Below are positions 11,076-31,035 of a stretch of 40,988 nt of DNA, one piece after another. The notes under the pieces were generated by a model that worked only from the letters and a program-made list of their open reading frames with translations, ran no database searches and had not been told where the DNA came from. The position numbers were made by a program, and so were the translations under genes. Source of the stretch: a virus; the UHGV virus genome UHGV-0160030; one strand, given 5' to 3'. The number at the start of each line of letters is the position of its first letter. Within the stretch, counting starts at the first letter, position 1.

Positions 11076-12833
11076 TCACAGAATTAACAGGTCCTCATCA
11101 GGATCAAGCGTGGACAGAAAGTCATTCACGCCCCCTCCATTTACCAGAAAGCGGCTCATGGCTGTAAAAAGCGCAACAGGGCCGTCGATTTTGGCTTCCG
11201 GCGTGGATTTATTCGGGAAGATGTTGTCGTTTTTGTCCGGTTTTACAGTAACGTTAGACATCATCCAGTTCATGACCGGATGATTGCTGTGATGGAAACG
11301 CCCGGCATAAACCAGTGATTCCGTTTCCTTCATGGCCTCTGACAGATTGCGGACCGTCTGCGGAACCTCCACCAGCGGTATCCCTTCTTCAGCCAGTGCC
11401 AGGCTGAACTGCATTGCGCTCCACGGGTCAAATCCCAGTTCCCTGAGGTTTTCACCGCCAATCCATTCCAGTAAGTCACTTTTTATCTGAGCATGATCGA
11501 TAACATCACCATCCGTCAGGATGAGCTTATCCATCTCCGCCCACTTCCGGTAAAGTTCTGCCTGCTGCCGCGAGCATCGTTCCAGCCGTCCTTCCGGAAG
11601 CCAGAATTTAAAATCAGCATGAACATGTCCGTTATCGGTTCGCCAGAGTTTTGCCGCCGCACAGATATCAATCTTATGAGCAAGGTCGACGCCGACCCAC
11701 ATGGGATATGTTTTCAGCTCATGTTGTGGAGCAATGTATTCGCACTTCTCCCACTTAATCATATCCATCCAGGCAGATTCGGCAGTGACCCACACATTCA
11801 TGTGTTTGGTAAAAAAATTCACCCGCGCAGAGACCTGCTCCTTCGCTTTTTTCGCCAGACGACGCAGATCATCCCAGCGTTTACAGATGCCCAGGCCAGG
11901 ATTCGCTTTCTGCCAGACCGTTTCATCAAACGGATCATCTCCCTCATCAAGCGTGTAAATGATCGCAAAGTAAGAGTCGTCTTTTACAGCGCCCTCCACG
12001 TCGCTGTTATAGCCTCGCAATACCTTGATGGCGTAATCACGCTGCTCGTAACAAATCCCTTCCTTGTTAAAGCCAGCCGTGGTGATACCAAATAACAGGG
12101 ACTGCAGACGGGCACCGGTTGCCGTTTCCAGAACGTCCCACACGTCGCGGGTTTTATGTGCATGCAGCTCATCAATAATGGCGCAGTGGATGTTCAGACC
12201 GTCCAGGTTGTTTGCATCCGAGGAAAGCGGTTCAAATTTTGATGCGCTCTGCTCCTGGTAAATCGCCAGCTTGTTGAAATCAAACAACCGCCCGAGTGTC
12301 GACCGGGCTTTTCTGACCATATTTTTGGCGTCTTCAAACACGATTCTGGCCTGGTCACGCGTGGTTGCGGCTGAATACACCTCAGCTCCGCCTTCACTAT
12401 CTGCCCCCGTCATATACAGGCCGATACCCGATGACAGTGTTGATTTTGCGTTTTTACGGGCGACTTCGTTGTACGCCGTCCGGAACCGGCGCACCATCAC
12501 CGGACGTCCGCTGCCATCGCTGCGCATGACAACTTCCCCGGTTTCTTCATTGACCAGCGGAATGACAAAACCAAAAATATTAATGAGGATAAATACATGC
12601 CAGTCCATCAACTCAATGGGCTGGCCTGCCAGTGCCCCTTTTACATGAGGCACAAATTTGTAGAAATTCAGGATGTGCTGCGCACGGGGTTCACTGAAAT
12701 AAATCCCCCGCTTTTCGCCGTACTTCAGATCATCAAGAAAACGCTGGCAGGCCAGGCGGACAAATTCGCCAGCAACAATTTCTCCTGCAACAACACGTTC
12801 GGCGTAGCGGATCCCGTCAGCCACTTTTGCCAT
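11076..12833 (-). CDS. Terminase large subunit
   Basis: 585 aa; synteny; TGA/ATG overlap with small subunit. Confidence 0.85.
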   Translation of the reverse strand: MAKVADGIRYAERVVAGEIVAGEFVRLACQRFLDDLKYGEKRGIYFSEPRAQHILNFYKFVPHVKGALAGQPIELMDWHVFILINIFGFVIPLVNEETGEVVMRSDGSGRPVMVRRFRTAYNEVARKNAKSTLSSGIGLYMTGADSEGGAEVYSAATTRDQARIVFEDAKNMVRKARSTLGRLFDFNKLAIYQEQSASKFEPLSSDANNLDGLNIHCAIIDELHAHKTRDVWDVLETATGARLQSLLFGITTAGFNKEGICYEQRDYAIKVLRGYNSDVEGAVKDDSYFAIIYTLDEGDDPFDETVWQKANPGLGICKRWDDLRRLAKKAKEQVSARVNFFTKHMNVWVTAESAWMDMIKWEKCEYIAPQHELKTYPMWVGVDLAHKIDICAAAKLWRTDNGHVHADFKFWLPEGRLERCSRQQAELYRKWAEMDKLILTDGDVIDHAQIKSDLLEWIGGENLRELGFDPWSAMQFSLALAEEGIPLVEVPQTVRNLSEAMKETESLVYAGRFHHSNHPVMNWMMSNVTVKPDKNDNIFPNKSTPEAKIDGPVALFTAMSRFLVNGGGVNDFLSTLDPDEDLLIL

Positions 12834-13315
12834 CAGTCTCTCGCTTTTAAAAGCTCTGCCAGCGGATCAACATTATCCGGTCCGGCGGTATTTACTTTTG
12901 CCCGGCTTGCCGGTGACATACCAAATTCTGCAAGCATCGCCCGGATCCGCTTCCAGGCATCCGCTTTCATCGCAGCAGCCGGGTGTGCCTTAATCAGCAC
13001 ATCACCGTTCTGCGTTTCCGAGCGGTAGGTGTACCCCTCAACATCGAGTGTTTCGCAGTGATGCCGGTATTCGGTATAGGCTTCCACCAGTAGCTCAAGC
13101 GCACGCGCATCAAGCTGAGAAATGATCCCTTCCGCATTCAGCTCTTCCGCCATTCGCCTGAACCAGTACTTCCCCTGCGCCCCTAAATGTTGCGGAATTT
13201 TAGGGAGACCTTTTTCATCCTTTTTAGCGGTTTTTTTGAGGTCTTTAACTGGCCGCTTTGAGGGGTTGCCTCGTATCAAATGCAGGCGTGGCGGGATTTT
13301 CGGGGGTCCAGACAT
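12833..13315 (-). CDS. Terminase small subunit
   Basis: 160 aa, basic N-terminus; directly upstream of and overlapping TerL. Confidence 0.7.
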   Translation of the reverse strand: MSGPPKIPPRLHLIRGNPSKRPVKDLKKTAKKDEKGLPKIPQHLGAQGKYWFRRMAEELNAEGIISQLDARALELLVEAYTEYRHHCETLDVEGYTYRSETQNGDVLIKAHPAAAMKADAWKRIRAMLAEFGMSPASRAKVNTAGPDNVDPLAELLKARD

Positions 13316-13462
13316 AATCGGTTTTACCTATCAATCATTTAATCACATTCCAAAAAAAAGTTTTCGAACCTGCGGCGATGCGAGGAAAGGTCAGGCGGCG
13401 GTACTGAACAGCCAGGGTTGCAGAGATTTGACCCGCCCCTCCCCTGCAGATGGGAGCTGTTA
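13316..13462. other. Predicted cos / packaging recognition interval between HNH gene and terminase small subunit
   Basis: Inference from HK97-type gene order (HNH-cos-TerS-TerL); GC-rich GCGGCGA / GGCGGCGG tracts present; exact cohesive end not determinable from sequence. Confidence 0.35.
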
Positions 13463-13813
13463 TCAATTGATGCGTTCGCGCGCTGTTTTTGCTTTATGAC
13501 AGGGCCAGCACAGACTCTGCAGGTTACTGTCTGCATCCGTGCCACCATGAGCTTTCGGAATGATGTGGTCCACAGTTCTGGCTTCAACGGCTCTCCCATT
13601 GCGCAGGCAGTTCTGACACAGATGATTATCACGCTTCAGTATGCGCGCACGTATGGCATCCCATTTCGAGCCATAGCCACGCTGGTGGCGGCTCAGTCCG
13701 CGTTGATGCTGTACCCATCCTTCGCCACGATGTTTATCGCAGTAACCAGAACTGTCTGTGGTTGTACCTGCACATCCACGCTTACGGCAGGCGCGTGGGA
13801 TTAGTGCTGGCAT
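13463..13813 (-). CDS. HNH endonuclease (packaging-associated)
   Basis: 116 aa; Cys pairs plus DHIIPKAHGG...N motif typical of HNH; location just upstream of terminase. Confidence 0.8.
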   Translation of the reverse strand: MPALIPRACRKRGCAGTTTDSSGYCDKHRGEGWVQHQRGLSRHQRGYGSKWDAIRARILKRDNHLCQNCLRNGRAVEARTVDHIIPKAHGGTDADSNLQSLCWPCHKAKTARERIN

Positions 13814-13951
13814 GTTTCGCCCTTATATAAATCAAAGGTGACCTGCATTGAGTATCTCCATGGAATAGATTTGCTGCTGATATGAGACAGATCAATAGAC
13901 TTCATGAGCCAACGGGTGTAGATATTACTTTTTACTTCAGAGGGTTAACTC

Positions 13952-14491
13952 ATGGATATTAAAGATAAAATCAATACCATTTTGTTATGTGACATTGCCA
14001 TCCACCTAGGTATCGAAACTGATATTGATCCACAGCTTGTTAAATATGCTGTGTCATCTGGTAATGATTGGGTTATCAAGGCCGAATATTCACATTTGGA
14101 TGTTGACGAACCAAGTAAAGAAGATCGTGATTTTGTTACTGCTGTCTTGAATATGTATCGCGGACTTTCCAATGCTTTCAGGAAACTTAGTGATGACGAG
14201 CAAAAAGAATTAGTCCGTGACCATCATCTAAAAATACATGATGGGGCAATTCAGCTCCCAGGTTTCGACGGTAATAATGAATGCGATTACTTCAGTATCA
14301 TTGAGGCATATCAGAAAATTGATCGCTTCCCCGAACAGAAACAGCCCATTGCCAATACTCATTCACGTACAGAACATCTCTATAACGCAATGCTTGATGA
14401 GTTTAAGAAAATTGACGCTGTAAATCGAAGCTGGGATTTATCGAAGGAAGAACTGGCATCCATTCTTTCCACAGCTCCACGCAGTTTCTAA
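13952..14491 (+). CDS. Hypothetical cytoplasmic protein, AT-rich moron opposite to the late operon
   Basis: 179 aa; AGAGGG RBS; no signal peptide; visibly lower GC than flanks; own terminator hairpin at 3' end. Confidence 0.6.
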   Translation: MDIKDKINTILLCDIAIHLGIETDIDPQLVKYAVSSGNDWVIKAEYSHLDVDEPSKEDRDFVTAVLNMYRGLSNAFRKLSDDEQKELVRDHHLKIHDGAIQLPGFDGNNECDYFSIIEAYQKIDRFPEQKQPIANTHSRTEHLYNAMLDEFKKIDAVNRSWDLSKEELASILSTAPRSF

Positions 14492-14496
14492 GTGCT

Positions 14497-14763
14497 TTAG
14501 GCGGGTTTCCAACCCGCCTTATTATGCTCGTATATAGAGAAGGAAGCACCCAAATTAACCAGCGCGGATTTCTTTTCCTCAATACGGCTGTTAAGTTCAG
14601 CAACTGCATGCGGGCGTATGGCCTCAAGAAAAGCACTATATTGATAGGCAGACTGGATTGTCACACCAAGCCCTGCACCACTTTCCAGTATACCTTTCTG
14701 TCGCTGTAGCTCTTTCATCTCGTTATAGATGTAATGTGCGTTACTTAGGTTTTCTACGTTCAC
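14497..14763 (-). CDS. Hypothetical protein (88 aa), convergent with the moron
   Basis: ORF with GTG start; its 3' end runs into the terminator hairpin, so coding status is uncertain. Confidence 0.3.
   Translation of the reverse strand: MNVENLSNAHYIYNEMKELQRQKGILESGAGLGVTIQSAYQYSAFLEAIRPHAVAELNSRIEEKKSALVNLGASFSIYEHNKAGWKPA
14499..14519 (+). terminator. Hairpin AGGCGGGTT-tcc-AACCCGCCT followed by ttattat, shared by convergent genes
   Basis: Read directly from sequence. Confidence 0.6.
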
Positions 14764-14918
14764 GCCCTAAGTTCTTCCTGCAGTTAGCCTGCACTGATTT
14801 GTTATGCGCCAATATGTCCCGCTTCGTCTGTTGCATTATCATAAGTAATAGCGTAGGTTGACACCTTGGCTCTCTTTCGCCACCGGCGAATCTTTAGCGG
14901 ATTATCCTTGGCCGGTTT

Positions 14919-15386
14919 TTATCTGAGACATTGCTCACGAATGTATAGCTGTGCCCCTTCCAGTTGCTTCTGCATCGTCATCAACCGTTCTCTGAGGGTG
15001 AAATAATCCCGTTCAGCGGTGTCTGCCAATCTGGGGCTGGTTGCATTATCCACGCTGGTGGGTCCGGTGGCTTCACGCACGGCTGCGGAGCAACTGGCAT
15101 TGACCCGCAGGCGCTTACGACCAGCGGCAACATCAGCGCGCAGAGTTTCATTTTCAGCTTTCGCATTGGCTAATTCTCTCGAGTACTTTGCATCGAGCGC
15201 AGCAACATCACGCTGACGCTGCTGCATGTCAGCGATGGTGGCGGTCAGCTGCTTCAGCTCACTGACTTTTTTATCACGCTGTTCTTTGTAGGTGATGGCG
15301 TTATCACGGTAATGATTGACCGCCCACGACAGGCAGACGATGATGCAGATAACCAGAGCATAAATAATCGCGGCGACTCTGCTCAC
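14919..15386 (-). CDS. Rz: Inner-membrane spanin Rz
   Basis: Translation [33 protein letters not shown]... closely matches recalled lambda Rz; GTG start overlapping endolysin stop (GTGA). Confidence 0.85.
14981..15166 (-). CDS. Rz1: Outer-membrane lipoprotein spanin Rz1, embedded in Rz in another frame
   Basis: [22 protein letters not shown]... lipobox and proline-rich tail, matches recalled lambda Rz1; fully nested in Rz. Confidence 0.8.
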
Positions 15387-15916
15387 TGATCTATTCCCCA
15401 ACAGGCTAATGCGCTTTCTTGGTCACGACGAATAACCTGTCCATAGCAGTTATTTGAACGTATGCGGCAATCGCGCCCACCATCTTTTATCCACCAGCGA
15501 ATCGCCTCGCATGCGCCCTTACGATCACCAGCATTCAGCCGCTTATAAAACGTCGATGGAAAACACTTACCGGGGCCAATGTTATAGGGACAAAATGACG
15601 CGATACCCGCTTTTTGTGGTTCGGTCAGTGGTACTTTAATATTGCGCTCCACCCATGCCAGCGCCTTATCACGCTCAATGGCGTTGACCTGGTCGCATTT
15701 TTCCTTCGACAGTTTCATACCGGGAAAAACGGGTTTTCCATCCACCATCGTGGCACCCCGACAGATGGTCCAGATGCCGGAACCATCGCGGTATGCCGTT
15801 GTGTGGTTACCTTCTTTTTCATCCAGAAACTGGTCGAGAATATCAGGCGCGGGCGCACCGACGGCAATCAGTGCCAGAACGGCAGCCGACAGGCCGTATC
15901 TGATTTTTGCGTTCAT
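15383..15916 (-). CDS. Endolysin, lysozyme-like with N-terminal SAR (signal-anchor-release) segment
   Basis: 177 aa; Gly/Ala-rich weakly hydrophobic N-terminus [14 protein letters not shown]; position upstream of Rz. Confidence 0.75.
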
Positions 15917-15979: not shown

Positions 15980-16330
15980 TTAAGGTTGTGATTCCGGAGG
16001 AGTCTTCAGAGAACCAGTAATTCTTCCTGGTAGCTTTCCTTTGTAGGTTATCCACACATTCTGCGCCTCTAAAATTACGGGGCGCTTTTCCGGCGACTGC
16101 TCATCCCCTTCACATAACCCGGCAGCAACATCCAGGAAGACCTGTCTGATGCTCCTTCTGGCTGCTGCCTCATAAAACCCCAGCGCGGCACCTTCAACAC
16201 GGTCCAGCGAGATGTCCAGGTCAAAAATTTCACCGTCAAAGCGTTTTTTGTCCCGTAACGCTAAAGTTACCGTAACTTTATTCTCAAAATTGCGGATCCC
16301 TTTCACAATCAGTTCATAGTTTTGAGTCAT
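15980..16330 (-). CDS. Hypothetical protein inserted between holin and endolysin
   Basis: 116 aa; ATG 4 nt after holin stop with GGGAGAG RBS; no recognisable motif. Confidence 0.6.
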   Translation of the reverse strand: MTQNYELIVKGIRNFENKVTVTLALRDKKRFDGEIFDLDISLDRVEGAALGFYEAAARRSIRQVFLDVAAGLCEGDEQSPEKRPVILEAQNVWITYKGKLPGRITGSLKTPPESQP

Positions 16331-16334
16331 TGAA

Positions 16335-16550
16335 TTACTCTCCCCGTGCAGCCTTACGACGGTCCTCTCTGATTTTGAAATACAGGTTAGTCAGATATGT
16401 CAGGAAGCCCAGAACCAGACTCCCCAGTACACCAATCGCAGCCCACTGTGACGGACTGACCTGATCAAGCCACTGTAAAAACCAGTAGCCAGCACTGCCT
16501 GCGGAGGTGCCGTAGGCAATGCCCGTTGAAATTTTATCCATGGATTTCAT
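16335..16550 (-). CDS. S: Pinholin (phage 21 S-like class II holin) with dual start motif
   Basis: 71 aa [27 protein letters not shown]...; two TM segments; Met1/Met4 dual start; strong GGAGGTGAGG RBS; the track ORF start at 16649 is an upstream extension. Confidence 0.8.
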
Positions 16551-16990
16551 AGCCTCACCTCCGCAGCGAACGGATGGCGTAGTTATAAGGGGAGCGAAAA
16601 AGAAAGAATGCGCGATTGCGCAATATGGTAACGTCAGGGTATTATCCACTGGCTGAATAGATCACTTCACGTTTTTTGTTCCTTGCCGCCCGTATCCATA
16701 TGCGGGCTTTTTTTTGCATGTAAAAAGGCCCCAACACATGTGCGTGGGGCCTGAGAGTATACATGGTTTCAGTCAACTGCATGGTGCCGGGTGCCTCCCG
16801 GTGAATTCAGTACCAGCACCTGAATCCGCGATTATCCCATATACCTACTCGCTGATTGCCCCTCCGCACAGGGGGATTCACCATGCCAGTTTCTTTTAAC
16901 AAACTCCCCGCAAAACAGACAACTGTCAACCGTCTGAATTGTGAGACATTTAAAAAAAGGCCCGCAAAAGCGAGCCGGGAAAAATAAGTC

Positions 16991-17067
16991 TGGCGCGTTG
17001 TACTGGATTCGAACCAGTGACCGATTGCTTAGAAGGCAATTGCTCTGTCCGGTTGAGCTAACAACGC
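16991..17067 (-). tRNA. tRNA-Arg (anticodon UCU)
   Basis: Hand-folded cloverleaf: acceptor GCGTTGT/ACAACGC, anticodon loop CUUCUAA, T-loop TTCGAAT, CCA encoded. Confidence 0.8.
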
Positions 17068-17080
17068 AGGGTACAGATAA

Positions 17081-17157
17081 TGGACCGCCATCGAGGACTC
17101 GAACCCCGCGCAACCAGCTTCGAAGGCTGGCGCTCTATCCTGATGAGCTAATGGCGG
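17081..17157 (-). tRNA. tRNA-Arg (anticodon UCG)
   Basis: Hand-folded: anticodon stem CCAGC/GCTGG, loop CUUCGAA, T-loop TTCGAGT, 3' CCA; exact 5' end uncertain by 1 nt. Confidence 0.7.
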
Positions 17158-17164
17158 TATGTGA

Positions 17165-17240
17165 TGGTGGCCCTTGCTGGATTTGAACCAGCGACCTGGC
17201 GATTATGAGTCGCTCGCTCTCACCACTGAGCTAAAGGGCC
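17165..17240 (-). tRNA. tRNA with anticodon CAU (Ile2 lysidine-type or Met), resembles E. coli ileX
   Basis: GGCCCTTTAGCTCAGTGGT...CTCATAA...GGTTCAAATCC...CCACCA. Confidence 0.75.
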
Positions 17241-17710: not shown

Positions 17711-18091
17711 TTACTTTTTTAGCAGCCAGTCGTCCATCTCCAGTCTTACCCCCAGCACAGACAAACATCCGTCAATAAACCCTTCGGCTATCTGCATCTC
17801 AATTCGTATTGCTTTTTCGCTTTTCTTTCTCGTCCTGGCTATCTGTCTTTTTGATATTCGCAACAAATAATGAGCAATGAGAAGCGAATACTCCTCAGGT
17901 TTTTTCTGCTTCAGACGAGCAAGACAGTTTTCAATGATAAGTCCGTCATCATCGCAGCAGGCCGGACGTGGTTTAGTGGCAGATGGTAAAAGTCCTTTGA
18001 ATCCGGCAGCGATCGGAGAATAGTCCACCCCGGTGTTACCACTTGCAGCCCATGCCCCCCAGCGTTCAAGAACCATCTGAATATCACGCAT
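17711..18091 (-). CDS. Q: Late gene antiterminator Q (phage 21 / 933W-type Q family)
   Basis: MRDIQMVLERWGAWAA...CCDDD...RLEMD matches recalled Q21-type proteins; ATG at 18106 is an alternative upstream start. Confidence 0.8.
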   Translation of the reverse strand: MRDIQMVLERWGAWAASGNTGVDYSPIAAGFKGLLPSATKPRPACCDDDGLIIENCLARLKQKKPEEYSLLIAHYLLRISKRQIARTRKKSEKAIRIEMQIAEGFIDGCLSVLGVRLEMDDWLLKK

Positions 18092-18108
18092 CAACTTTCT
18101 CCACAAAA

Positions 18109-23220: not shown

Positions 23221-23411
23221 GGACGCACCTCCACCGTAGTTACGTATTTAACCGGGCTACCTTTCATTGAGATGGTTTCACACATCTCTGCCGCTTTCAG
23301 TTCCGCTGTTTTTCTGGATTTATAGCGACGGTGCCAGACAGATACATCCGTGCGAACTGATACATCGTTTCTGTATTCCGTAGTGGAGATGATGATTTCG
23401 TAACTAATCAT
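23217..23411 (-). CDS. Hypothetical protein (64 aa)
   Basis: ORF with coupled overlaps. Confidence 0.45.
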   Translation of the reverse strand: MISYEIIISTTEYRNDVSVRTDVSVWHRRYKSRKTAELKAAEMCETISMKGSPVKYVTTVEVRP

Positions 23412-23959
23412 GGGCGAACCTCCTTGTCAGAACCATTCAGCCTGGAATCAACAAGTGCAGCGCCAAAAACAGCATCACCAACACGGTCGTACAGTTTGCT
23501 AGCCAGCGGAGATTCAACGGCCTTAAGCATTGGATAAAGCTGGCTTGTCCAGATTTGATGGATTTCACGCAAATGCAGGTATACGCCTCTGGCGTTTCGT
23601 GCGACAGCTGACATATCAGACGCATCGGCACCTGATAAACTCTTCTCCATCAGGTTAAAGGCGTTGATGTATGCCTCTTTGAACCGGGCAGCACGTTTAC
23701 CAGTGAAGCCCATGGCAAGGAACGCGAAGCCATCGCGGGTGATTTGATAGCAAGGTAGTTTGCGGCCTGATGCGTCGGTGTATTCACTTAACACAAAATT
23801 GTGTTCAGTAAATTCAGCGGAACATTCGAGGTTTCTAATTCTATCTAAAACCCGCTCATGCCGTTTAGTAAAGTAATTAGCTACTGCAAGAGATGTGGTG
23901 ACAACGCGACCATTGATAATCGTGATTTCAGGGTGAGATTGGGTTGGGAGAGTAGTCAT
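23408..23959 (-). CDS. Phage regulatory protein Rha family
   Basis: ITIINGRVVTTSLAVANYFTKRHERVLDRIRNL...ITRDGFAFLAMGFTGKRAARFKEAYINAFN typical Rha signature; start moved to ATG 23959 (MTTLPTQ...). Confidence 0.7.
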   Translation of the reverse strand: MTTLPTQSHPEITIINGRVVTTSLAVANYFTKRHERVLDRIRNLECSAEFTEHNFVLSEYTDASGRKLPCYQITRDGFAFLAMGFTGKRAARFKEAYINAFNLMEKSLSGADASDMSAVARNARGVYLHLREIHQIWTSQLYPMLKAVESPLASKLYDRVGDAVFGAALVDSRLNGSDKEVRP

Positions 23960-24129
23960 GGTGACAGCCCCTATGTTGAATTCAATGAACTCACCACCAA
24001 GGCTTTCCACGACCATATAGGTGGTGAGACGTACAGGGGTGGAAATACCGGTCAACATAGAACCCGGCCCAACCGAAGTTGGCCCTGCACGCCCCACCAT
24101 AATTTGGGCGTAACGATGCTCATGACACG

Positions 24130-24150
24130 AAAAAACCGCATGAGCGCGGT
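24130..24150 (-). terminator. tR1-like intrinsic terminator in the early rightward operon
   Basis: plus strand aaaaaaccgcatgagcgcggt; minus transcript ACCGC-gcucau-GCGGU followed by U6. Confidence 0.55.
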
Positions 24151-24370
24151 TGTGCTCTATATTGAATTTCGGGTTTCCACGCCCGGCACCCGCTTTATAA
24201 GGTGCCTGAGCAGTGTAACGTCCCGGAATTGCAGAATCAATATTTGGTCTTGAAATGATCATATAGCTGCTGATATCTTTAGAACTGTTCTTGGATGTTT
24301 CGGAGCCGTTTTATGCGAAACAGCTCCCCGTTATTGATGTTGAGTGAGCCGGGTTACTCCCGGCTTTTTT

Positions 24371-25302: not shown

Positions 25303-25413
25303 TCTTTAGTCTCACACCAGATACTTTGTTATCCAACGATGTTAACCACAGGAACCCAAAGTATCAAGAAATTCTGTTACTTTAGTATCAACAGCCATGA
25401 GAGGAGAAGAAAA
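25303..25413. promoter_or_regulatory. Right operator/promoter region (divergent PR/PRM-like) with CCAAAGTATCAA-type operator motifs
   Basis: GTATCA at 25361 and 25385, inverted partial copy at 25320; 12-mer CCAAAGTATCAA at 25356 repeated at 26095. Confidence 0.55.
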
Positions 25414-26070
25414 ATGAAGTCTTTAGGTGAACGTCTCATCAACGCACGGCAAAAAGCTGGGTTAACACAAGATGCGTTGGCTAAAAAAGCTGGGGTCACC
25501 AGAGTTGCAATCAGTAAAGCCGAGCAAGGCCTTACAAAAAGTTTCAACGGTGACACCCTTTTTAAAGTTGCAGCTGCACTGCAGTGTTCACCGCAGTGGC
25601 TTCAGAACGGAGATGAAAAAGATAAGCATTGGGAAAATAATGTTAAGAGCTGCCCACAGAGAGACACAGCATACTCTTACCCTGTAATTAACTGGGTTCA
25701 GGCAGGATTATTCGCAACTTCTGGTGATGACTACAACATGTATGATCAGGATAATTGGAGGCATTCTGTAAAATACGCTGGTGAGAGGGGGTTCTGGCTG
25801 GAAGTGCACGGAGACTCAATGACTTCGCCCGTAGGAATAACATTTCCTGAAGGAATGTCGATCCTTGTCAACCCAGATAAAGAAGTTTTTTCAGGGTGTT
25901 ACGTCATCGCCAGAAAAAAATCCACCAATGAAGCAACATTCAAAAAATATATTTCTGACATGGGAAAGGCGTTTCTAAAGCCCCTTAATCCACAATATCC
26001 AATCATAGAAATGGACAATGATTGCGAAATAGTAGGTGTTGTGGTTGATGCCAGGTGGGATATTTTCTAA
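25414..26070 (+). CDS. cI: CI-type repressor: N-terminal HTH plus C-terminal S24 (LexA-like) autopeptidase domain
   Basis: 218 aa from ATG 25414 with GAGGAG RBS; HTH LTQDALAKKAGVTRVAISKAEQG; Ala-Gly cleavage site; GDSM serine motif. Confidence 0.85.
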   Translation: MKSLGERLINARQKAGLTQDALAKKAGVTRVAISKAEQGLTKSFNGDTLFKVAAALQCSPQWLQNGDEKDKHWENNVKSCPQRDTAYSYPVINWVQAGLFATSGDDYNMYDQDNWRHSVKYAGERGFWLEVHGDSMTSPVGITFPEGMSILVNPDKEVFSGCYVIARKKSTNEATFKKYISDMGKAFLKPLNPQYPIIEMDNDCEIVGVVVDARWDIF

Positions 26071-26173
26071 CCAGACACAAAACACAAAAAGAAACCAAAG
26101 TATCAAAAATCACTTGCCACACCTTGATACCTTAGTTACCATAAAACAAAGTTCGTAACTGAGGTATCATCTC
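26071..26173. promoter_or_regulatory. Left operator/promoter region (PL-like) with the same operator motif
   Basis: CCAAAGTATCAA at 26095, inverted TTGATAC at 26124, GTATCA at 26164; candidate -35 TTGCCA / -10 TACCAT. Confidence 0.5.
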
Positions 26174-26590
26174 ATGATCAATAAAGCTACAACTCTTGAC
26201 TGTCTCGAAGAACTGAAAAACCTCGGCAGCCTCATTACACTAATAGCAAAAGCAACACCTGATGCTACGCTCTCTAGCGATATAGAGTCATGCGCAGGGC
26301 TGGCATGGGATATGACAAATAGCATATCCAGAAAGCTATCGTCAGCAATGCTTTTACAGAATAAAAATTCTGCAATCAACAACCGTCTTCGCACCCAACG
26401 CGAAGCCTGCGGCTTAACAACCGCCGAACTCGCCAGGCTGCTCGATCTCGATGAAGAAATTATCATCCAGTGGGAGAGCGGAGAGTATGAACCAACTATC
26501 AGTATGCTTATCCCACTGGCAAATATTCTTGGCTGCGATCCGATGTGGCTGTTAACTGGTAAACCAACAGGTGGGGATACTTGCGCATGA
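26174..26590 (+). CDS. XRE-family HTH protein with N-terminal extension, first gene of leftward operon
   Basis: 138 aa; C-terminal HTH LTTAELARLLDLDEEIIIQWESGEYEP. Confidence 0.6.
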   Translation: MINKATTLDCLEELKNLGSLITLIAKATPDATLSSDIESCAGLAWDMTNSISRKLSSAMLLQNKNSAINNRLRTQREACGLTTAELARLLDLDEEIIIQWESGEYEPTISMLIPLANILGCDPMWLLTGKPTGGDTCA

Positions 26591-26829
26591 AAAACTGTGA
26601 TGCTTACCATATTTGTCTCATTGGTGAATTGCTTGATTTCATACAAAAAAGCACTGCGCGCAATAATAAAAATATAACATATGGTGATCTGGTAATAATT
26701 TCAGAGGATATAAAGAGCATCGCTCTTAAATTCAAGAGCGACGCGAGTATTGATGACGCTATTTACGCTTATCTTGCGAAAATAATTGACGGATCCAAAA
26801 TCCAGCCTCTGGATGAACCTCGTCAGTGA
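26581..26829 (+). CDS. Hypothetical protein (82 aa)
   Basis: ORF overlapping previous gene 3' end; 3' end overlaps a convergent minus-strand gene. Confidence 0.4.
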   Translation: MRMKNCDAYHICLIGELLDFIQKSTARNNKNITYGDLVIISEDIKSIALKFKSDASIDDAIYAYLAKIIDGSKIQPLDEPRQ

Positions 26830-26986
26830 AAAACTCCTTTGATGAAGATGAGAACTGCTTCATAAACTTTACTTTATCTTCAGGTGAAACTACCTGACGA
26901 ATTAATGCGGAGATAGCAACTTTGTGCCAAATTAATTCTTTTTTGAGTTCTGAAATCTCTTTTTCGAGTTGCTCTGCGTTAATCAT
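26759..26986 (-). CDS. Hypothetical protein (75 aa), opposite strand to the surrounding operon
   Basis: Strong RBS GGAGGATAA before ATG 26986. Confidence 0.55.
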   Translation of the reverse strand: MINAEQLEKEISELKKELIWHKVAISALIRQVVSPEDKVKFMKQFSSSSKEFFTDEVHPEAGFWIRQLFSQDKRK

Positions 26987-27165
26987 TTATCCTCCATTGA
27001 GAGCTGAATTGAAAATGGGGACCAACACGCGGCTACGTGTGGTCGTGCGCCGGACACGGATAAGCATCCGGTAACTGATTATCAATCATTGCGGAAACAG
27101 TCTCAATATGAAAACACTTCTGAGACTCGCTATATAGCAGGACATATAAGTCAGCTGAGGAAGCC

Positions 27166-27531
27166 ATGAAAAAGTTCGAAAACATAACTGTTCTCCATGT
27201 TGATGACTTTGATTATACAAACCCGGAACTTCTCCCGGAGGTTGTAAAGGCAATAGATGTTGCCGATATAGTGATTAGAGGAAAGAGAATTGTCAAAAAC
27301 AGGCTCGCATGCACTTCAGAAGCAATGACAGAAACAACCTCACAGCAAGATAATTACGAAGGCATTTGTCTGGAGCCTGATTCATTTGCGGTAAATGTTT
27401 ATCATTTATTGCATGCAACACAGGTATTACATATGTCCAGTAATCACGAAACGAAAACACTCGGCAGCGAAATTCTGAATTTTGCATGTGAGTATGCAAA
27501 AACTGCTGCCGAAAAAGAATTAGCGCAATAA
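27166..27531 (+). CDS. Hypothetical protein (121 aa)
   Basis: GAGGAAG RBS; AT-rich coding sequence. Confidence 0.6.
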   Translation: MKKFENITVLHVDDFDYTNPELLPEVVKAIDVADIVIRGKRIVKNRLACTSEAMTETTSQQDNYEGICLEPDSFAVNVYHLLHATQVLHMSSNHETKTLGSEILNFACEYAKTAAEKELAQ

Positions 27532-27609
27532 CAACAAATATGCTCTGAACGTTTATTGCGGTTTTATCGCCGGGGATTGTTACAATCTTAATCCACAGGA
27601 GGATTTATT

Positions 27610-27723
27610 ATGACTTTTATAAAGAATATGGCATCACACAAGACCGCCTGTCTTATTGCACAATACGGTGAAAATTACATGCATATTGCCTGCTTATTTC
27701 TGCGTAAAGCATACGGGAAATAA
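27610..27723 (+). CDS. Micro-ORF (37 aa) with strong RBS
   Basis: ACAGGAGG then 7 nt then ATG; MTFIKNMASHKTACLIAQYGENYMHIACLFLRKAYGK; below the ORF-track size cutoff. Confidence 0.4.
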   Translation: MTFIKNMASHKTACLIAQYGENYMHIACLFLRKAYGK

Positions 27724-27726
27724 CAA

Positions 27727-28086
27727 ATGACACATGAACCCATTAATACATATCGTCGCCGTATAGCTGTTGCAGCACTCCATCGAATAAAACGTAAAAC
27801 AGGTGGTGATCTGCTTATTGTTGACCTTCTGGATGGGAACATTACGACCATAGAAATAACAGAACAGTTTATAAACCAGTTGCTGTTGCGCTTTGAAGAT
27901 ATTACCCGTGGTGAATTGGGTCGAGTGGAGGGTGAAACAGAATTCCGAACTGCATACCAGAATGCCATCGGGATTAATCAACATACTGAATACCAGGCTG
28001 AAACCGGAAAGTTAATTATAGACAACCTTTTACAAGAGGTTATTGATTACGCGAAAGAAAAATATATCAGCGGAGGAATTAACTGA
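27727..28086 (+). CDS. Hypothetical protein (119 aa)
   Basis: ORF, coupled ATGA overlap with next gene. Confidence 0.55.
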   Translation: MTHEPINTYRRRIAVAALHRIKRKTGGDLLIVDLLDGNITTIEITEQFINQLLLRFEDITRGELGRVEGETEFRTAYQNAIGINQHTEYQAETGKLIIDNLLQEVIDYAKEKYISGGIN

Positions 28087-28301
28087 TGGCTAATTTATCC
28101 CCTGTATCTGTTGTGCACGAAAAAGTGCAGATCGTTATGACAATTGAAAATGGCCAGGTAACAGATGTCTGCAAAGTCCGCGATGGAGAGCTGATTGCCA
28201 GCATGGATACATTCATATGGCTGGCAGAAAGAGCGGGGTATCAGATAACAGCACCTGCTCAGGAGGAAACCAGTGACATTAACAGCAACGCGAATTCCTG
28301 A
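28086..28301 (+). CDS. Hypothetical protein (71 aa)
   Basis: ORF, ATGA overlap with previous gene. Confidence 0.5.
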   Translation: MANLSPVSVVHEKVQIVMTIENGQVTDVCKVRDGELIASMDTFIWLAERAGYQITAPAQEETSDINSNANS

Positions 28302-28491
28302 GTGGGTCCACCAGCAGGCGTTGCTGGTCCTGCGGCGGTACAGATGCCGACGTATATTCCCGCATCGGATACAGCGCAACGGATATCTCAGTCTGAAGGT
28401 TAACCGTCGCTGGCGGCTGTTATCGAAAGACGACGGCCGGAACTGGGAAATAATGAGTCATGAACGTTATTCGGGAGAAATAAAGAAATGA
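28273..28491 (+). CDS. Hypothetical arginine-rich small protein (72 aa)
   Basis: GTG start 6 nt after AGGAGG; Arg-rich LLVLRRYRCRRIFPHRIQRNG...RRWRLL. Confidence 0.5.
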   Translation: MTLTATRIPEWVHQQALLVLRRYRCRRIFPHRIQRNGYLSLKVNRRWRLLSKDDGRNWEIMSHERYSGEIKK

Positions 28492-28880
28492 TCGACAACC
28501 GCACCGCCAGCGCCATTGACCAGGCATTACAGAAACATGATACACCCGTCGGCCCGTTATTTTTTGTAACACATCACGGAAGAACAAAAAAATGCCTCAC
28601 TCGAAAAACGGCAATTCGTTACCTGGCATTCTTTATGACCACCCGCGCTTTTGAACGTTCAGGATTCCGACAACGCCATCCTGACAAGCGTTTTATCTTC
28701 AACGGGAATGAAATATGGAAACGTGGAGAATCAACCACAGAGTACACCCGCGCACACCAGCGAACAATCAGACGACTGCGCAGACTCATCGCCAGGAAAC
28801 AGTATACAGAAAAATGGTTCAGAAAATATGACACATGGAGCGCCGGATATTACGAACTGATGGCAACAAAACCATTCTGA
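28488..28880 (+). CDS. Hypothetical basic protein (130 aa)
   Basis: ATGA overlap with previous gene. Confidence 0.55.
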   Translation: MIDNRTASAIDQALQKHDTPVGPLFFVTHHGRTKKCLTRKTAIRYLAFFMTTRAFERSGFRQRHPDKRFIFNGNEIWKRGESTTEYTRAHQRTIRRLRRLIARKQYTEKWFRKYDTWSAGYYELMATKPF

Positions 28881-28940
28881 CGTAAACGAAATTAACCATG
28901 ACGCAATTAAATAAGGCAAGCTGAATACAGCAGGAGGACC

Positions 28941-29129
28941 ATGAACATTTATTTCAGAATAGTTATATCACTGGCAATTATCGCATGTATTTACGGATTG
29001 CTCGTCCCGTTTCTGATATCAATGAAGGATACGGTAGCGGTGATTTCTGGCTTTGCACTGACGTTTCTAACCCCGCCATGTATTTATACCATTTATAAGG
29101 GGCTTTCTTTCACTAAGGATAAAAGATGA
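28941..29129 (+). CDS. Small two-transmembrane-helix protein (62 aa), coupled to SPFH gene
   Basis: AGGAGG RBS; two hydrophobic helices; stop overlaps start of next gene (ATGA). Confidence 0.65.
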   Translation: MNIYFRIVISLAIIACIYGLLVPFLISMKDTVAVISGFALTFLTPPCIYTIYKGLSFTKDKR

Positions 29130-29953
29130 AAAAAATTATTTTTTCTTTAGCCATTGTTCTGCCTGCCATTGGCCTTGTCGGTTGTGATCGTGTTGAGCCT
29201 GGTAATGTGGGCATCAAAGTCAACAAACTTGGCGACGACAAAGGCGTCGGTGAAGTGGTCGGTGTTGGTCGCTACTGGACAGGCTGGAACACTGAAGTTT
29301 ATATCTTCCCGACCTTTAAGCAGATGAAGACCTACGATGATCCATTCAGTTTCCAGATGAGCGATGGAACAACCATTGGTTACCACATCGGAGTAGCCTA
29401 CAAGGTTGATCCATCCAAAGTTACCACAGTCTTTCAGACCTACCGCAAAGGCGTGGACGACATTACCGACACCGACCTGCGCCAGAAGATAGCCGACGCA
29501 CTCAACCGACTGGCCAGCAAAATGACCACCGACAAATTTATCGACGGCGGCAAGTCTGAGCTGCTGGATGCAGCTCTTAAAGACATTCAGGAAGAAATGA
29601 CGCCCATCGGTATTCAGGTAATAAGCCTCTCATATGTGGGTAAGCCGGAGTACCCGCCTACTGTTATCGACAGCATTAATGCCAAAGTCACGGCGAACCA
29701 GAAAACTCTGCAACGCGAGCAGGAAGTAAAACAGCGCGAAGCGGAAGCCAACATGTTGCGCGCGGAAGCTGCCGGACAGGCTGATGCGATTCGCACAAAA
29801 GCCCAGGCTGAAGCCGATGCTATTCGTTTACGCGGTGAAGCTCTGCGTCAGAACCCCGGTGTTATGGAGCTGGAAGCCATCAATAAATGGAACGGCACGC
29901 TGCCGCAATACATGACCAGCGGTGCCAATACACCATTTATCCAGGTTAAATAA
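29126..29953 (+). CDS. SPFH/band-7 (stomatin/prohibitin/HflKC-like) domain lipoprotein
   Basis: 275 aa; signal peptide with lipobox LVGC; coiled-coil Ala/Glu/Gln-rich C-terminal region typical of SPFH proteins. Confidence 0.7.
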   Translation: MKKIIFSLAIVLPAIGLVGCDRVEPGNVGIKVNKLGDDKGVGEVVGVGRYWTGWNTEVYIFPTFKQMKTYDDPFSFQMSDGTTIGYHIGVAYKVDPSKVTTVFQTYRKGVDDITDTDLRQKIADALNRLASKMTTDKFIDGGKSELLDAALKDIQEEMTPIGIQVISLSYVGKPEYPPTVIDSINAKVTANQKTLQREQEVKQREAEANMLRAEAAGQADAIRTKAQAEADAIRLRGEALRQNPGVMELEAINKWNGTLPQYMTSGANTPFIQVK

Positions 29954-30024
29954 CTTAATATGCCCGGCAGGCCGTCGGGCTAAGGGAAAAGCAGATAAAC
30001 ACTCATAATACTCAACCGCAAATA

Positions 30025-30366
30025 ATGAACTATGACCCAAATCTGACGTCATGCGGACGCATGGCGAAACAAACCGTTCGATTAACTTTCGGGCAATGGG
30101 AATACCGCGAAACATTCGAAGTCACTGTCGGTGGCAACCTGACCGGACTCGATGTTATCAGTTGCGCTATTGAAAGCCTGTACGCAACGCTGCCTTATGA
30201 AGAAGTCGAGGATGAGCGTACAGGGGAAACAGATATCATGGCCACCATTAATATTGGCGAACTGACATGCCAGGATGAAGACCTGTCCGGAGAGCTCTGG
30301 CTTGCCGGGATGCTTATCTCAGCAGAAATTATCAGTATTGAACCCGCTACAAACATACGGCTCTGA
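30025..30366 (+). CDS. Hypothetical acidic protein
   Basis: ORF; start ambiguous (ATG 30025 or 30061), both with weak RBS. Confidence 0.4.
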   Translation: MNYDPNLTSCGRMAKQTVRLTFGQWEYRETFEVTVGGNLTGLDVISCAIESLYATLPYEEVEDERTGETDIMATINIGELTCQDEDLSGELWLAGMLISAEIISIEPATNIRL

Positions 30367-30397
30367 AGTTCTCACTATTCAGAGAGCAGGAGAAAAA

Positions 30398-30640
30398 ATG
30401 TTCGCTTTGATTAATCAGGGACAACTGTATACCGACAGTGCCGGTTACCCGGTAATAATTATTCGCTGCATAAACAACACTGTGTTGTACAGAAGAATTG
30501 ATGGGCGAACACAGTCAGTAAAAATAAACGATTTCAATGAACTGTTTGAACGGATTGATCACCAGGAATACCGACAAATTCTGGCAGAAACAGAGCAGGA
30601 GGCTCATCTGAAAAAATTACGGGCCATGAAAAGGAAGTAA
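30398..30640 (+). CDS. Hypothetical protein (80 aa)
   Basis: ATG 30398 preceded by AGGAG; the track start is an upstream extension. Confidence 0.55.
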   Translation: MFALINQGQLYTDSAGYPVIIIRCINNTVLYRRIDGRTQSVKINDFNELFERIDHQEYRQILAETEQEAHLKKLRAMKRK

Positions 30641-30643
30641 AGA

Positions 30644-30790
30644 ATGAATAAAGCGTTTGAGCTATGGGTGCGCCAGCGTTACGGCAATCGCTATGACCTG
30701 ACGCGAGATGTTGACGGCTTCCACTGTCGTGAAGTTGTGAAGCGAATGTTTGAAGTGTGGTGCCACTGCCGTGGGCTGAGTGTTGTGTGA
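30644..30790 (+). CDS. Small Cys-containing protein (48 aa)
   Basis: AAGGAAG RBS, ATG 30644; below ORF-track cutoff. Confidence 0.4.
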   Translation: MNKAFELWVRQRYGNRYDLTRDVDGFHCREVVKRMFEVWCHCRGLSVV

Positions 30791-30798
30791 GGTAATAC

Positions 30799-31035
30799 AT
30801 GGGCAATGTGATTCAACTGGCTCCCAATGAATGGGTTTGTGAAAGCGTTCTTATCGCAATTACCGGGCTCAAACCAGGCACAATTCTTCGGGCCCGGAAA
30901 GAATGCTGGATGGTTGGAAGAGAGTATATTCACGTATCACCAGACGGTAATCCAAAGCCTTCCAGTGAATGTATGTATAACAGAAAAGCAATAGATGCCT
31001 GGGTCGCCTCAATGAAAAACAAACAACCCAGGTGA
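30799..31035 (+). CDS. xis: Excisionase-like small protein
   Basis: 78 aa directly upstream of integrase, same strand; GAGG RBS. Confidence 0.6.
   Translation: MGNVIQLAPNEWVCESVLIAITGLKPGTILRARKECWMVGREYIHVSPDGNPKPSSECMYNRKAIDAWVASMKNKQPR

What the first reader, a model, noticed from the sequence alone, without database searches (positions are those of the whole stretch)
13814..14763. AT-rich moron in the bor position, on the opposite strand between lysis genes and cos
A 179-aa cytoplasmic protein gene (13952..14491) lies opposite to the late operon with its own AGAGGG RBS, a candidate upstream promoter and a clean terminator hairpin. Its base composition is visibly more AT-rich than the flanking phage genes, suggesting horizontal acquisition. 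It occupies the slot where lambda carries bor. A convergent 88-aa ORF shares the terminator. I could not match either protein to anything I know. Morons here are usually lysogen-expressed fitness or defence factors.
Basis: partly seen in the sequence, partly recalled or inferred. Interest (0 to 1): 0.65.

Follow-up and report, generated by a model that had tools for sequence, protein, structure and literature searches.

The report
Prophage YfbU-family moron, likely anti-phage
The AT-rich gene sitting backwards between the lysis and packaging genes of this E. coli prophage is real, belongs to the poorly understood YfbU protein family, and is most likely a single-gene defence against other phages, like its one tested relative in Lactococcus.

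Summary
A 179-aa ORF (13952-14491, +) lies antisense to the late operon, between Rz/Rz1 and the HNH-terminase genes. It has an AGAGGG ribosome-binding site, a 9-bp G+C-rich hairpin just after its stop codon, and 39% GC against 50% for the window.

It is an indel cassette, since sibling phages have 42 bp there instead of 1105 bp. Homologues at 50-83% identity occupy the same antisense slot in at least eight other lambdoid prophage lineages. These span three packaging-module types. Each homologue has its own hairpin and low GC, and dN/dS is about 0.1. Other cargo in that slot includes a TIR protein and a PD-T4-6-like kinase.

The only YfbU-domain protein with a tested mobile-element role is lactococcal Kamadhenu, a 180-aa single-gene abortive-infection system. 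The best reading is therefore a lysogen-expressed, Kamadhenu-like exclusion gene. Neither expression nor defence has been shown.

The 88-aa ORF is an unrelated late-strand phage gene, and the hairpin lies inside its 3' end. Verdict: a new member of a known kind, of moderate interest.

The parts
13814..14948 (.). Indel cassette relative to sibling phages. 1135 bp here replaces about 85 bp in phi467, 606R7 and Evi. The left junction is directly after the HNH start codon. The right junction is inside the last 9 codons of Rz.
   Evidence: Empty-site comparison. Megablast identity to the sibling phages stops at 13813. Cassette GC is 41.9%.
13866..13951 (+). Conserved 5' regulatory region (promoter and leader) of the YfbU-like gene. 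It contains the conserved blocks ATAGACT and GTGT(A/T)GATATTA.
   Evidence: 76% identity to L021 and L023, and 81-82% over the proximal 62 nt. In the same pairs the synonymous sites of the coding region differ at 65-79%.
13901..13928 (+). Low-confidence sigma-70 candidate: -35 TTCATG (13901-13906), 16-nt spacer, -10 TATTAC (13923-13928). An overlapping GATATT at 13921-13926 is an alternative -10.
   Evidence: The same aligned position gives the same kind of candidate in the window, L021, L023 and L024. The generic scan did not call it. This is inference only.
13939..13944 (+). Shine-Dalgarno sequence AGAGGG, 7 nt before the ATG.
   Evidence: Sequence. Conserved in homologues.
13952..14491 (+). 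179-aa YfbU-family protein. It is soluble and acidic (pI 4.9), with the family motif PGFDGNNE...THS.
14499..14525 (+). Intrinsic-terminator-like hairpin (9-bp stem, 3-nt loop) plus UUAUUAU, 8 nt after the stop codon.
   Evidence: dG -16.2 kcal/mol, z -3.35. Nearly all of the homologous loci aligned (clear in at least 8 of 9; Providencia L005 has an A+T-rich inverted repeat instead) have a hairpin at this place, with different stem sequences.
14497..14763 (-). 88-aa late-strand ORF (phrog_5415, unknown function). It travels in the same cassette here but is independent of the YfbU-like gene.
   Evidence: phrog_5415 E=2e-38, over residues 1-76 only. It is absent from the Enterobacter and Providencia YfbU loci. 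Homologues occur in unrelated temperate and virulent phages, and downstream of the lysis genes without YfbU in Citrobacter phage Chris1.

Best explanation
The feature is a self-contained, horizontally acquired transcription unit (a moron). It sits in the variable slot between the lysis cassette and the packaging genes of a lambdoid E. coli prophage, and it encodes a solo 179-aa protein of the YfbU family.

The most likely role is a prophage-borne, single-gene superinfection-exclusion (abortive-infection) factor of the Kamadhenu type. In this reading the gene is transcribed antisense to the late operon, in the same orientation as the cI-like repressor, from its own weak promoter while the prophage is repressed. 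The cytoplasmic protein, probably an oligomer like E. coli YfbU, stays inert until an incoming phage makes a trigger protein. By analogy with Kamadhenu escape mutants, that trigger is a single-strand annealing or recombination protein. The protein then blocks a late step of the infection, at the cost of the infected cell.

Shown here:
- gene reality and purifying selection
- the YfbU fold
- cassette (indel) status
- a terminator feature that is conserved across homologues
- a conserved 5' region
- conserved position across lineages
- defence-type neighbours

Inferred, not shown: lysogenic expression, any defence phenotype, the trigger and the killing mechanism.
For: Family and fold:
- Pfam PF03887 scores above its threshold.
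- Profile-sequence comparison (hhalign) of a 113-member family alignment (A5) with K-12 YfbU gives probability 99%, E=3.8e-18.

Moron status:
- Sibling phages show the empty site.
- GC is 39% against 50% here, and 10-16 points below the flanks in 8 other loci.
- The hairpin after the stop is present in nearly all of the 9 loci aligned, with different stems.
- The 5' region is conserved despite saturated synonymous sites.

Functional gene: dN/dS is 0.075-0.126. The cassette is present in 225 of 5426 complete E. coli genomes.

Conserved slot: homologues lie in the same antisense position in prophages with HNH/Terminase_4, Nu1-like/GpA and Terminase_2/Terminase_6 packaging modules and with different lysis cassettes.

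Defence association:
- In other prophages the same slot holds a PDC-S66/ThsB-like TIR protein (E=1e-113) and a PD-T4-6/Stk2-like kinase. On an Acinetobacter plasmid a YfbU gene lies close to AbiD, with one small hypothetical gene between them.
- In the wider family, 6 of 79 loci pair the gene with an FRG-domain protein (PADLOC defence candidate PDC-S15). Another 29 of 79 pair it with a conserved membrane-anchored partner.

Precedent: Kamadhenu is a 180-aa, PF03887-only, single-gene abortive-infection system on a lactococcal plasmid (PMC11381338). Its escape mutants map to G22 of a Sak-like annealing protein (PMC12184496). It has no effect on phage DNA replication, transcription or translation (PMC13064643).
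Against: - No expression data exist, and the consensus scan finds no sigma-70 site on the + strand upstream.
- PADLOC-DB 2023 gives no hit. This says little, because Kamadhenu was described later.
- I could not obtain the Kamadhenu sequence, so the link is only at the level of Pfam family, size and architecture.
- The protein is only 21% identical to E. coli YfbU. The family is very large and has no known biochemistry: 2112 representative clusters at E<=1e-3. Function may therefore differ between branches.
- Many relatives carry partner genes that this one lacks.
- Neighbourhood to defence genes is suggestive, not a controlled enrichment test.
Confidence: 0.5

Rival explanations
1. It is a lysogenic-conversion factor that acts on host physiology rather than on phages. 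As a divergent paralogue of chromosomal YfbU, it would supplement or interfere with the host YfbU pathway. That pathway has been reported as needed for mazEF-linked death after DNA damage. The gene could thereby alter survival or prophage-induction outcomes under SOS stress.
For: - Same fold and shared GFD..E..TH motif as E. coli YfbU.
- Deletion of yfbU protected cells from death after DNA damage (PMC2646832).
- Morons in the bor slot include non-defence host-fitness genes such as bor itself (my own knowledge).
- A GlgS-like gene sits in this slot in L019.
Against: - Identity to YfbU is only 21% and the score is below the NCBIfam equivalog cut-off (34.8 against 90), so it is not an orthologue.
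- The family recurs on small plasmids and beside defence genes in many phyla. That pattern fits conflict systems better than housekeeping functions.
- The one mobile member tested is an anti-phage gene (PMC11381338).
Confidence: 0.2
2. It is a phage accessory or counter-defence protein that acts for the phage during infection or induction. For example, it could be an acidic protein that binds and neutralises a host factor or a host YfbU-type system, rather than a lysogen-expressed defence.
For: - The protein is small, soluble and acidic (pI 4.9).
- It is carried by many temperate phages.
- The host encodes a YfbU paralogue that could be a target.
Against: - The gene is antisense to, and insulated from, the late operon by its own terminator.
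- It shares orientation with the repressor gene.
- It is dispensable in sibling phages.
- Relatives are abundant on plasmids and chromosomes that have no phage context.
Confidence: 0.12
3. It is an addiction or stabilisation module. The YfbU-like protein would be toxic, or would guard against loss of the element, which would explain its presence on very small plasmids.
For: - YfbU-family genes occur on 3.4-16 kb plasmids of Pseudomonas, Psychrobacter, Acinetobacter and Mycobacterium.
- Many relatives form tight two-gene operons.
Against: - The phage subfamily is solo in every lineage examined, so there is no antitoxin candidate.
- Kamadhenu was expressed constitutively from a high-copy vector without reported toxicity (PMC11381338).
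Confidence: 0.08

Closest known systems
Kamadhenu (Lactococcus plasmid pUCCL624_130; Grafakou et al. 2024, PMC11381338)
   Same: - A single gene of about 180 aa consisting only of a YfbU (PF03887) domain, carried on a mobile element.
- It sits beside other defence cargo.
   Different: - Gram-positive plasmid versus Gram-negative prophage.
- Direct sequence similarity could not be measured.
- The defence phenotype, the abortive-infection behaviour and the annealing-protein escape mutants are known only for Kamadhenu (PMC12184496).
E. coli chromosomal YfbU (b2294; PDB 1WPB, 4LR3)
   Same: - Same two-domain helical fold.
- Same Pfam family.
- Shared GFD..E..TH motif.
   Different: - 21% identity, BLASTP E=0.044.
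- Fails the NCBIfam equivalog cut-off.
- 15 residues longer, with a GFDGNNE/NSH-type motif.
- Mobile, AT-rich and prophage-borne, rather than a conserved core gene next to hxpA and yfbV.
Lambda bor and the post-lysis moron slot of lambdoid phages
   Same: Same genomic position and orientation: antisense, immediately after Rz/Rz1 and before the packaging genes. It is an autonomous unit.
   Different: Bor is a small lipoprotein that confers serum resistance (my own knowledge). This protein has no signal or lipobox-like hydrophobic segment and no Bor match. The two are analogous in position, not homologous.
Single-protein prophage abortive-infection genes such as HepS of Gifsy-1 (PMC13043305) and BstA (PMC8585504)
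   Same: The concept is the same: one prophage-encoded protein that both senses an incoming phage and aborts the infection. The host prophage must avoid triggering it.
   Different: The folds are unrelated (HEPN nuclease; BstA). No catalytic domain is recognisable here.

Membership tests
YfbU family (Pfam PF03887 / UPF0304) | Scores above the Pfam gathering threshold | tested here: met
   46.3 bits against a cut-off of 25, E=6.5e-12, residues 46-172. All close homologues carry PF03887.
YfbU family (Pfam PF03887 / UPF0304) | Two-domain all-helical YfbU fold (1WPB, 4LR3) | tested here: met
YfbU family (Pfam PF03887 / UPF0304) | Conserved GFD..E and T/S-H motif | tested here: met
   G104, F105, D106, E110 and H137 are invariant or nearly so. 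They align with LGFDAATE...THG of K-12 YfbU.
Chromosomal YfbU orthologue (NCBIfam NF003936 equivalog) | Scores above the equivalog cut-off | tested here: not met
   34.8 bits against a cut-off of 90. It is a distant mobile paralogue, not the housekeeping orthologue.
Kamadhenu anti-phage system | Single-gene system whose product is a roughly 180-aa YfbU-domain-only protein | tested here: met
   179 aa with PF03887 as the only domain. No conserved partner in 9 prophage lineages. Table 1 of PMC11381338 gives 180 aa and PF03887 for Kamadhenu.
Kamadhenu anti-phage system | Detectable direct sequence or profile similarity to pUCCL624_130 | not testable with these tools
   The sequence (BioProject PRJNA1086404) is not held. 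There were no text supplements, and no Lactococcus hit in the plasmid, protein or genome searches.
Kamadhenu anti-phage system | Confers phage resistance with an abortive-infection phenotype; escape through a phage annealing protein | not testable with these tools
   This needs plaque and liquid-infection assays. It is known only for the lactococcal protein (PMC11381338, PMC12184496).
Moron (extra autonomous gene in a phage late region) | Present in some phages and absent from otherwise near-identical siblings | tested here: met
   phi467, 606R7 and Evi have 42 bp between Rz and HNH. The window has 1105 bp.
Moron (extra autonomous gene in a phage late region) | Base composition differs from the flanking phage genes | tested here: met
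   39.1% against 50.4% GC, z=-2.3. The same offset is seen in 8 other loci.
Moron (extra autonomous gene in a phage late region) | Own terminator | tested here: met
   Hairpin dG -16.2 kcal/mol, z -3.35. The feature is conserved with different stems in the homologous loci aligned.
Moron (extra autonomous gene in a phage late region) | Own promoter, active in the lysogen | tested here: inconclusive
   The generic scan gives no hit on the + strand. The 5' region is conserved, with a positionally conserved weak -35/-10 candidate. There are no expression data.
Lambda Bor lipoprotein family | Signal peptide or lipobox, and the Bor domain | tested here: not met
   No Bor hit in Pfam. No hydrophobic segment: maximum 19-aa Kyte-Doolittle score 1.25.

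The most novel reading that the evidence does not exclude
The 'GFDGNNE' branch of the YfbU family would be a widespread, so far unrecognised class of anti-phage modules in Proteobacteria and beyond. It has 2112 representative clusters.

The modules would be solo in lambdoid prophages. Elsewhere they would be paired with a membrane-anchored partner or with an FRG-domain protein. The E. coli prophage gene would be the first Gram-negative Kamadhenu-type abortive-infection protein, sensing phage recombination proteins. The chromosomal 'death gene' yfbU would be a domesticated relative.
Probability: 0.3. Interest if true: 0.6.

Novelty: new member of a known kind. Interest (0 to 1): 0.42.

Why it matters
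YfbU is a conserved E. coli protein. It has had two crystal structures for years and still has no known biochemical function.

A prophage-borne paralogue under strong purifying selection offers a tractable E. coli system for asking what the fold does. It is parked in a slot that elsewhere holds TIR and kinase defence genes, and it is related by family to a proven lactococcal abortive-infection gene. Tests with the standard coliphage collections would be straightforward.

If it works, it would extend Kamadhenu from a lactococcal curiosity to a broadly distributed defence family. It would also mark the post-lysis, pre-terminase slot of lambdoid prophages as a place to mine for defence cargo. About 4% of complete E. 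coli genomes carry this exact cassette.

Tried and rejected
- Direct comparison with Kamadhenu failed. The paper has no text supplements. tblastn of the plasmid collection with the window protein, K-12 YfbU and a Bacillota family member found no Lactococcus record. A profile search of the large protein collection listed no Lactococcus among its 120 best hits.
- PADLOC gave no hit for either ORF. I judged this uninformative, because the 2023 library predates Kamadhenu.
- The idea that the 88-aa ORF is a functional partner was rejected. It is absent from the Enterobacter and Providencia YfbU loci searched by tblastn, and it occurs alone in unrelated phages.
- Sequence search of solved structures with the single protein found nothing relevant. 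Only the fold search recovered YfbU.
- Rfam found no RNA family inside the cassette.
- Literature searches on the YfbU structures and on YfbU with phage added nothing beyond the lactococcal papers and the mazEF 'death gene' report.
- I looked for a single-strand annealing protein in this phage, as a possible self-trigger. None was recognised among the early-region ORFs scanned. Several of those ORFs have unknown function, so absence is not established.

Full report
**Observation**

The window is a lambdoid temperate phage genome whose late genes are on the minus strand. Their order is:

- Q antiterminator, 17711-18106
- three tRNAs
- holin, 16335-16649
- DUF1327, 15980-16330
- lysozyme, 15383-15916
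- Rz, 14919-15401, with Rz1 embedded
- an 88-aa ORF, 14497-14763
- HNH endonuclease, 13463-13813
- small terminase, 12833-13315
- large terminase, 11076-12833

The 179-aa ORF at 13952-14491 is the only plus-strand gene in this stretch.

- AGAGGG lies 7 nt before its ATG.
- A 9-bp G+C-rich hairpin at 14499-14519 follows, and then UAUUAU. It starts 8 nt after the stop codon. dG is -16.2 kcal/mol and z is -3.35.
- On the other strand the same hairpin has no U-run.
- The ORF is 39.1% GC (GC3 33.9%). The window is 50.4% and the neighbouring genes are 52-54%. Only 1.4% of 540-bp windows are as low.
- The generic promoter scan finds nothing on the plus strand upstream.

**What the protein is**

It is a YfbU-family protein:

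- Pfam PF03887 scores 46.3 bits against a threshold of 25.
- It matches phrog_6084, a family of unknown function.
- RefSeq annotates identical copies as 'YfbU family protein'.

It is a distant paralogue, not the housekeeping gene. Identity to K-12 YfbU is 21% with BLASTP E=0.044. It falls below the NCBIfam equivalog cut-off.

The invariant residues form the motif PGFDGNNE...THS, together with C13, W40 and Y144. A scan of 1.84 billion representative proteins (50%-identity clusters) with a profile of alignment A1 finds 2112 clusters at E<=1e-3.

**It is a cassette**

Sibling phages phi467, vB_EcoM-606R7 and Evi are about 97-99% identical through the HNH gene (phi467 and 606R7, which cover it fully) or the 3' end of Rz (Evi). 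They have only 42 bp between the Rz stop and the HNH start. The window has 1105 bp there.

The left junction is exactly after the HNH start codon. The right junction lies inside Rz, whose last nine codons differ. About 1135 bp (13814-14948) therefore replaces about 85 bp. This is a mosaic joint rather than a clean insertion.

The cassette occurs at near-identity in 225 of 5426 complete E. coli genomes and in two induced phage isolates.

**Conserved position and architecture**

Homologues at 50-83% identity were located in other Enterobacterales prophages, including Enterobacter, Providencia and Superficieibacter. In every case the gene sits antisense between the lysis/spanin genes and the small terminase. 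The lysis cassettes differ between these phages.

The packaging modules are of three kinds:

- HNH with Terminase_4 and TerL
- Nu1-like DUF1441 with GpA
- Terminase_2 with Terminase_6

Further shared features:

- Nearly every locus has its own hairpin just after the stop, with a different stem sequence.
- Every copy is 10-16 GC points below its flanks.
- Synonymous sites are saturated (pS 0.65-0.9). dN/dS is 0.075-0.126 where it can be measured.
- Against that background the 62 nt upstream of the ATG stay 81-82% identical to the 81-83% homologues. This argues for a constrained promoter and leader.
- A weak -35/-10 pair (TTCATG, 16 nt, TATTAC) recurs at the same aligned position. I treat it as a candidate only.

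**The 88-aa ORF**

It is a real phage gene family: phrog_5415, E=2e-38, matching residues 1-76. It lies on the late strand and has no homologue in the Enterobacter and Providencia YfbU loci searched (L001-L008). It occurs in unrelated temperate and virulent phages. One example is Citrobacter phage Chris1, where it lies after the lysis genes with no YfbU gene.

The hairpin lies inside its last codons. The ORF therefore overlaps the terminator rather than sharing it.

**Function**

No biochemical activity is known for any YfbU protein. Chromosomal yfbU was reported as needed for death after DNA damage in the mazEF pathway (PMC2646832).

The only mobile family member with a tested role is Kamadhenu:

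- It is a 180-aa, PF03887-only, single-gene abortive-infection system on a lactococcal plasmid (PMC11381338).
- Escape mutants carry a change at G22 of a Sak-like single-strand annealing protein (PMC12184496).
- It does not affect phage DNA replication, transcription or translation (PMC13064643).

Context supports a conflict role here:

- In other prophages the same slot holds a PDC-S66/ThsB-like TIR protein and a PD-T4-6/Stk2-like kinase.
- A YfbU gene lies close to AbiD on a small Acinetobacter plasmid, with one small hypothetical gene between them.
- YfbU-family genes are common on plasmids of many phyla.
- Among 79 species-representative genomes, 29 pair the gene with a conserved membrane-anchored upstream partner.
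- Another 6 of the 79 pair it with an FRG-domain protein that matches the PADLOC candidate PDC-S15.

The gene shares orientation with the cI-like repressor at 25339-26070.

I therefore favour a lysogen-expressed, Kamadhenu-like exclusion gene, with confidence about 0.5. Three rivals remain:

- a host-physiology conversion factor acting through the YfbU pathway (0.2)
- a phage accessory or counter-defence protein (0.12)
- an addiction-type module (0.08)

**Limits**

- I could not obtain the Kamadhenu sequence, so the relationship is at the level of family and architecture only.
- PADLOC's lack of a hit is uninformative, because its 2023 library predates Kamadhenu.
- Expression in lysogens, any defence phenotype, the trigger and the killing step are all inferred.

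**Verdict**

It is sharpened from 'unknown protein' to 'solo YfbU-family gene in a conserved cargo slot'. This is a new member of a known kind. It is of moderate interest as a testable lead into an old protein of unknown function.

Noticed in passing
L030-L109 (e.g. L041:4465-4968:+, L038:4452-4973:+): In 29 of 79 species-representative genomes, the YfbU-like gene is preceded on the same strand by a conserved 161-202-aa protein with an N-terminal transmembrane helix. The gap is -29 to +25 nt. The partner has no Pfam or PADLOC match. This looks like an undescribed two-gene module.
   Followed up: partly
L048:5545-6228:+, L096:4144-4860:+, L087:4008-4832:+: Six loci pair the YfbU-like gene with an adjacent FRG-domain protein (PF08867). 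That protein matches the PADLOC defence candidate PDC-S15, with E-values down to 6e-82.
   Followed up: partly
L024:1397-2275:+ and L017:6990-8488:-: The same post-lysis, pre-terminase slot in other prophages carries a PDC-S66/ThsB-like TIR protein. In another it carries a PD-T4-6/Stk2-like Ser/Thr kinase with a PP2C phosphatase. The slot looks like a defence-cargo hotspot of lambdoid phages.
   Followed up: partly
window 14497-14763 (-): The 88-aa late-strand ORF (phrog_5415) has homologues in large virulent phages (Erwinia jumbo phages and the roughly 110-kb Escherichia phages vB_EcoM_IME392 and EP_H11). Only its first 76 residues match the family. The last 12 residues run into the terminator hairpin of the opposite gene. 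This suggests a C-terminus altered by the recombination that built the cassette.
   Followed up: partly
window 14919-14948 (-): The last nine codons of Rz (…LYIREQCLR*) differ from those of sibling phages (…EYIRTQCIK*). The mosaic joint therefore falls inside a gene without breaking it.
   Followed up: yes
window 24017-24205 (-): Rfam finds a C4 antisense RNA (82 bits) and isrK (62 bits). They overlap the 5' end of an Ash/Rha-domain ORF (23408-24262). This is a P1/P7-type antisense-controlled antirepressor module inside a lambdoid phage that also has a cI-like S24 repressor.
   Followed up: no
window 16716-17240 (-): Between Q and the holin lie tRNA-Met(cat), tRNA-Arg(tcg), tRNA-Arg(tct) and the sRNA STnc100 (140 bits).
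   Followed up: no
L025:5001-6044 and L026:5001-6038 (Enterococcus plasmids): 257 Enterococcus plasmid records carry a YfbU-family gene. In the two examined, it is followed within 0-6 nt by a gene of about 170 aa with no confident family. They sit among IS1216, Fic and recombinase genes. This is another possible two-gene form of the family.
   Followed up: partly
L029:2956-3534 (Yersinia phage vB_YenM_324, Peduoviridae): A 32%-identical YfbU-like gene sits downstream of the tail-fibre genes of a P2-like phage. This is a different cargo site in a different phage type.
   Followed up: no
E. coli genomes and protein clusters (H26; P0029, P0032, P0035, P0038): One genome has an ISSen4 element inserted within the 1.6-kb stretch around the cassette (window 13400-15000). 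Several protein clusters are 143-156-aa variants that match only the first 100 or so residues and lose the Pfam domain. Some copies are therefore decaying.
   Followed up: no
window 26100-31000 (+): No Red-beta, RecT, Erf or Sak-type annealing protein was recognised among the early-region ORFs scanned, several of which have unknown function. If the Kamadhenu analogy holds, absence of the trigger would give the prophage trivial self-immunity.
   Followed up: partly
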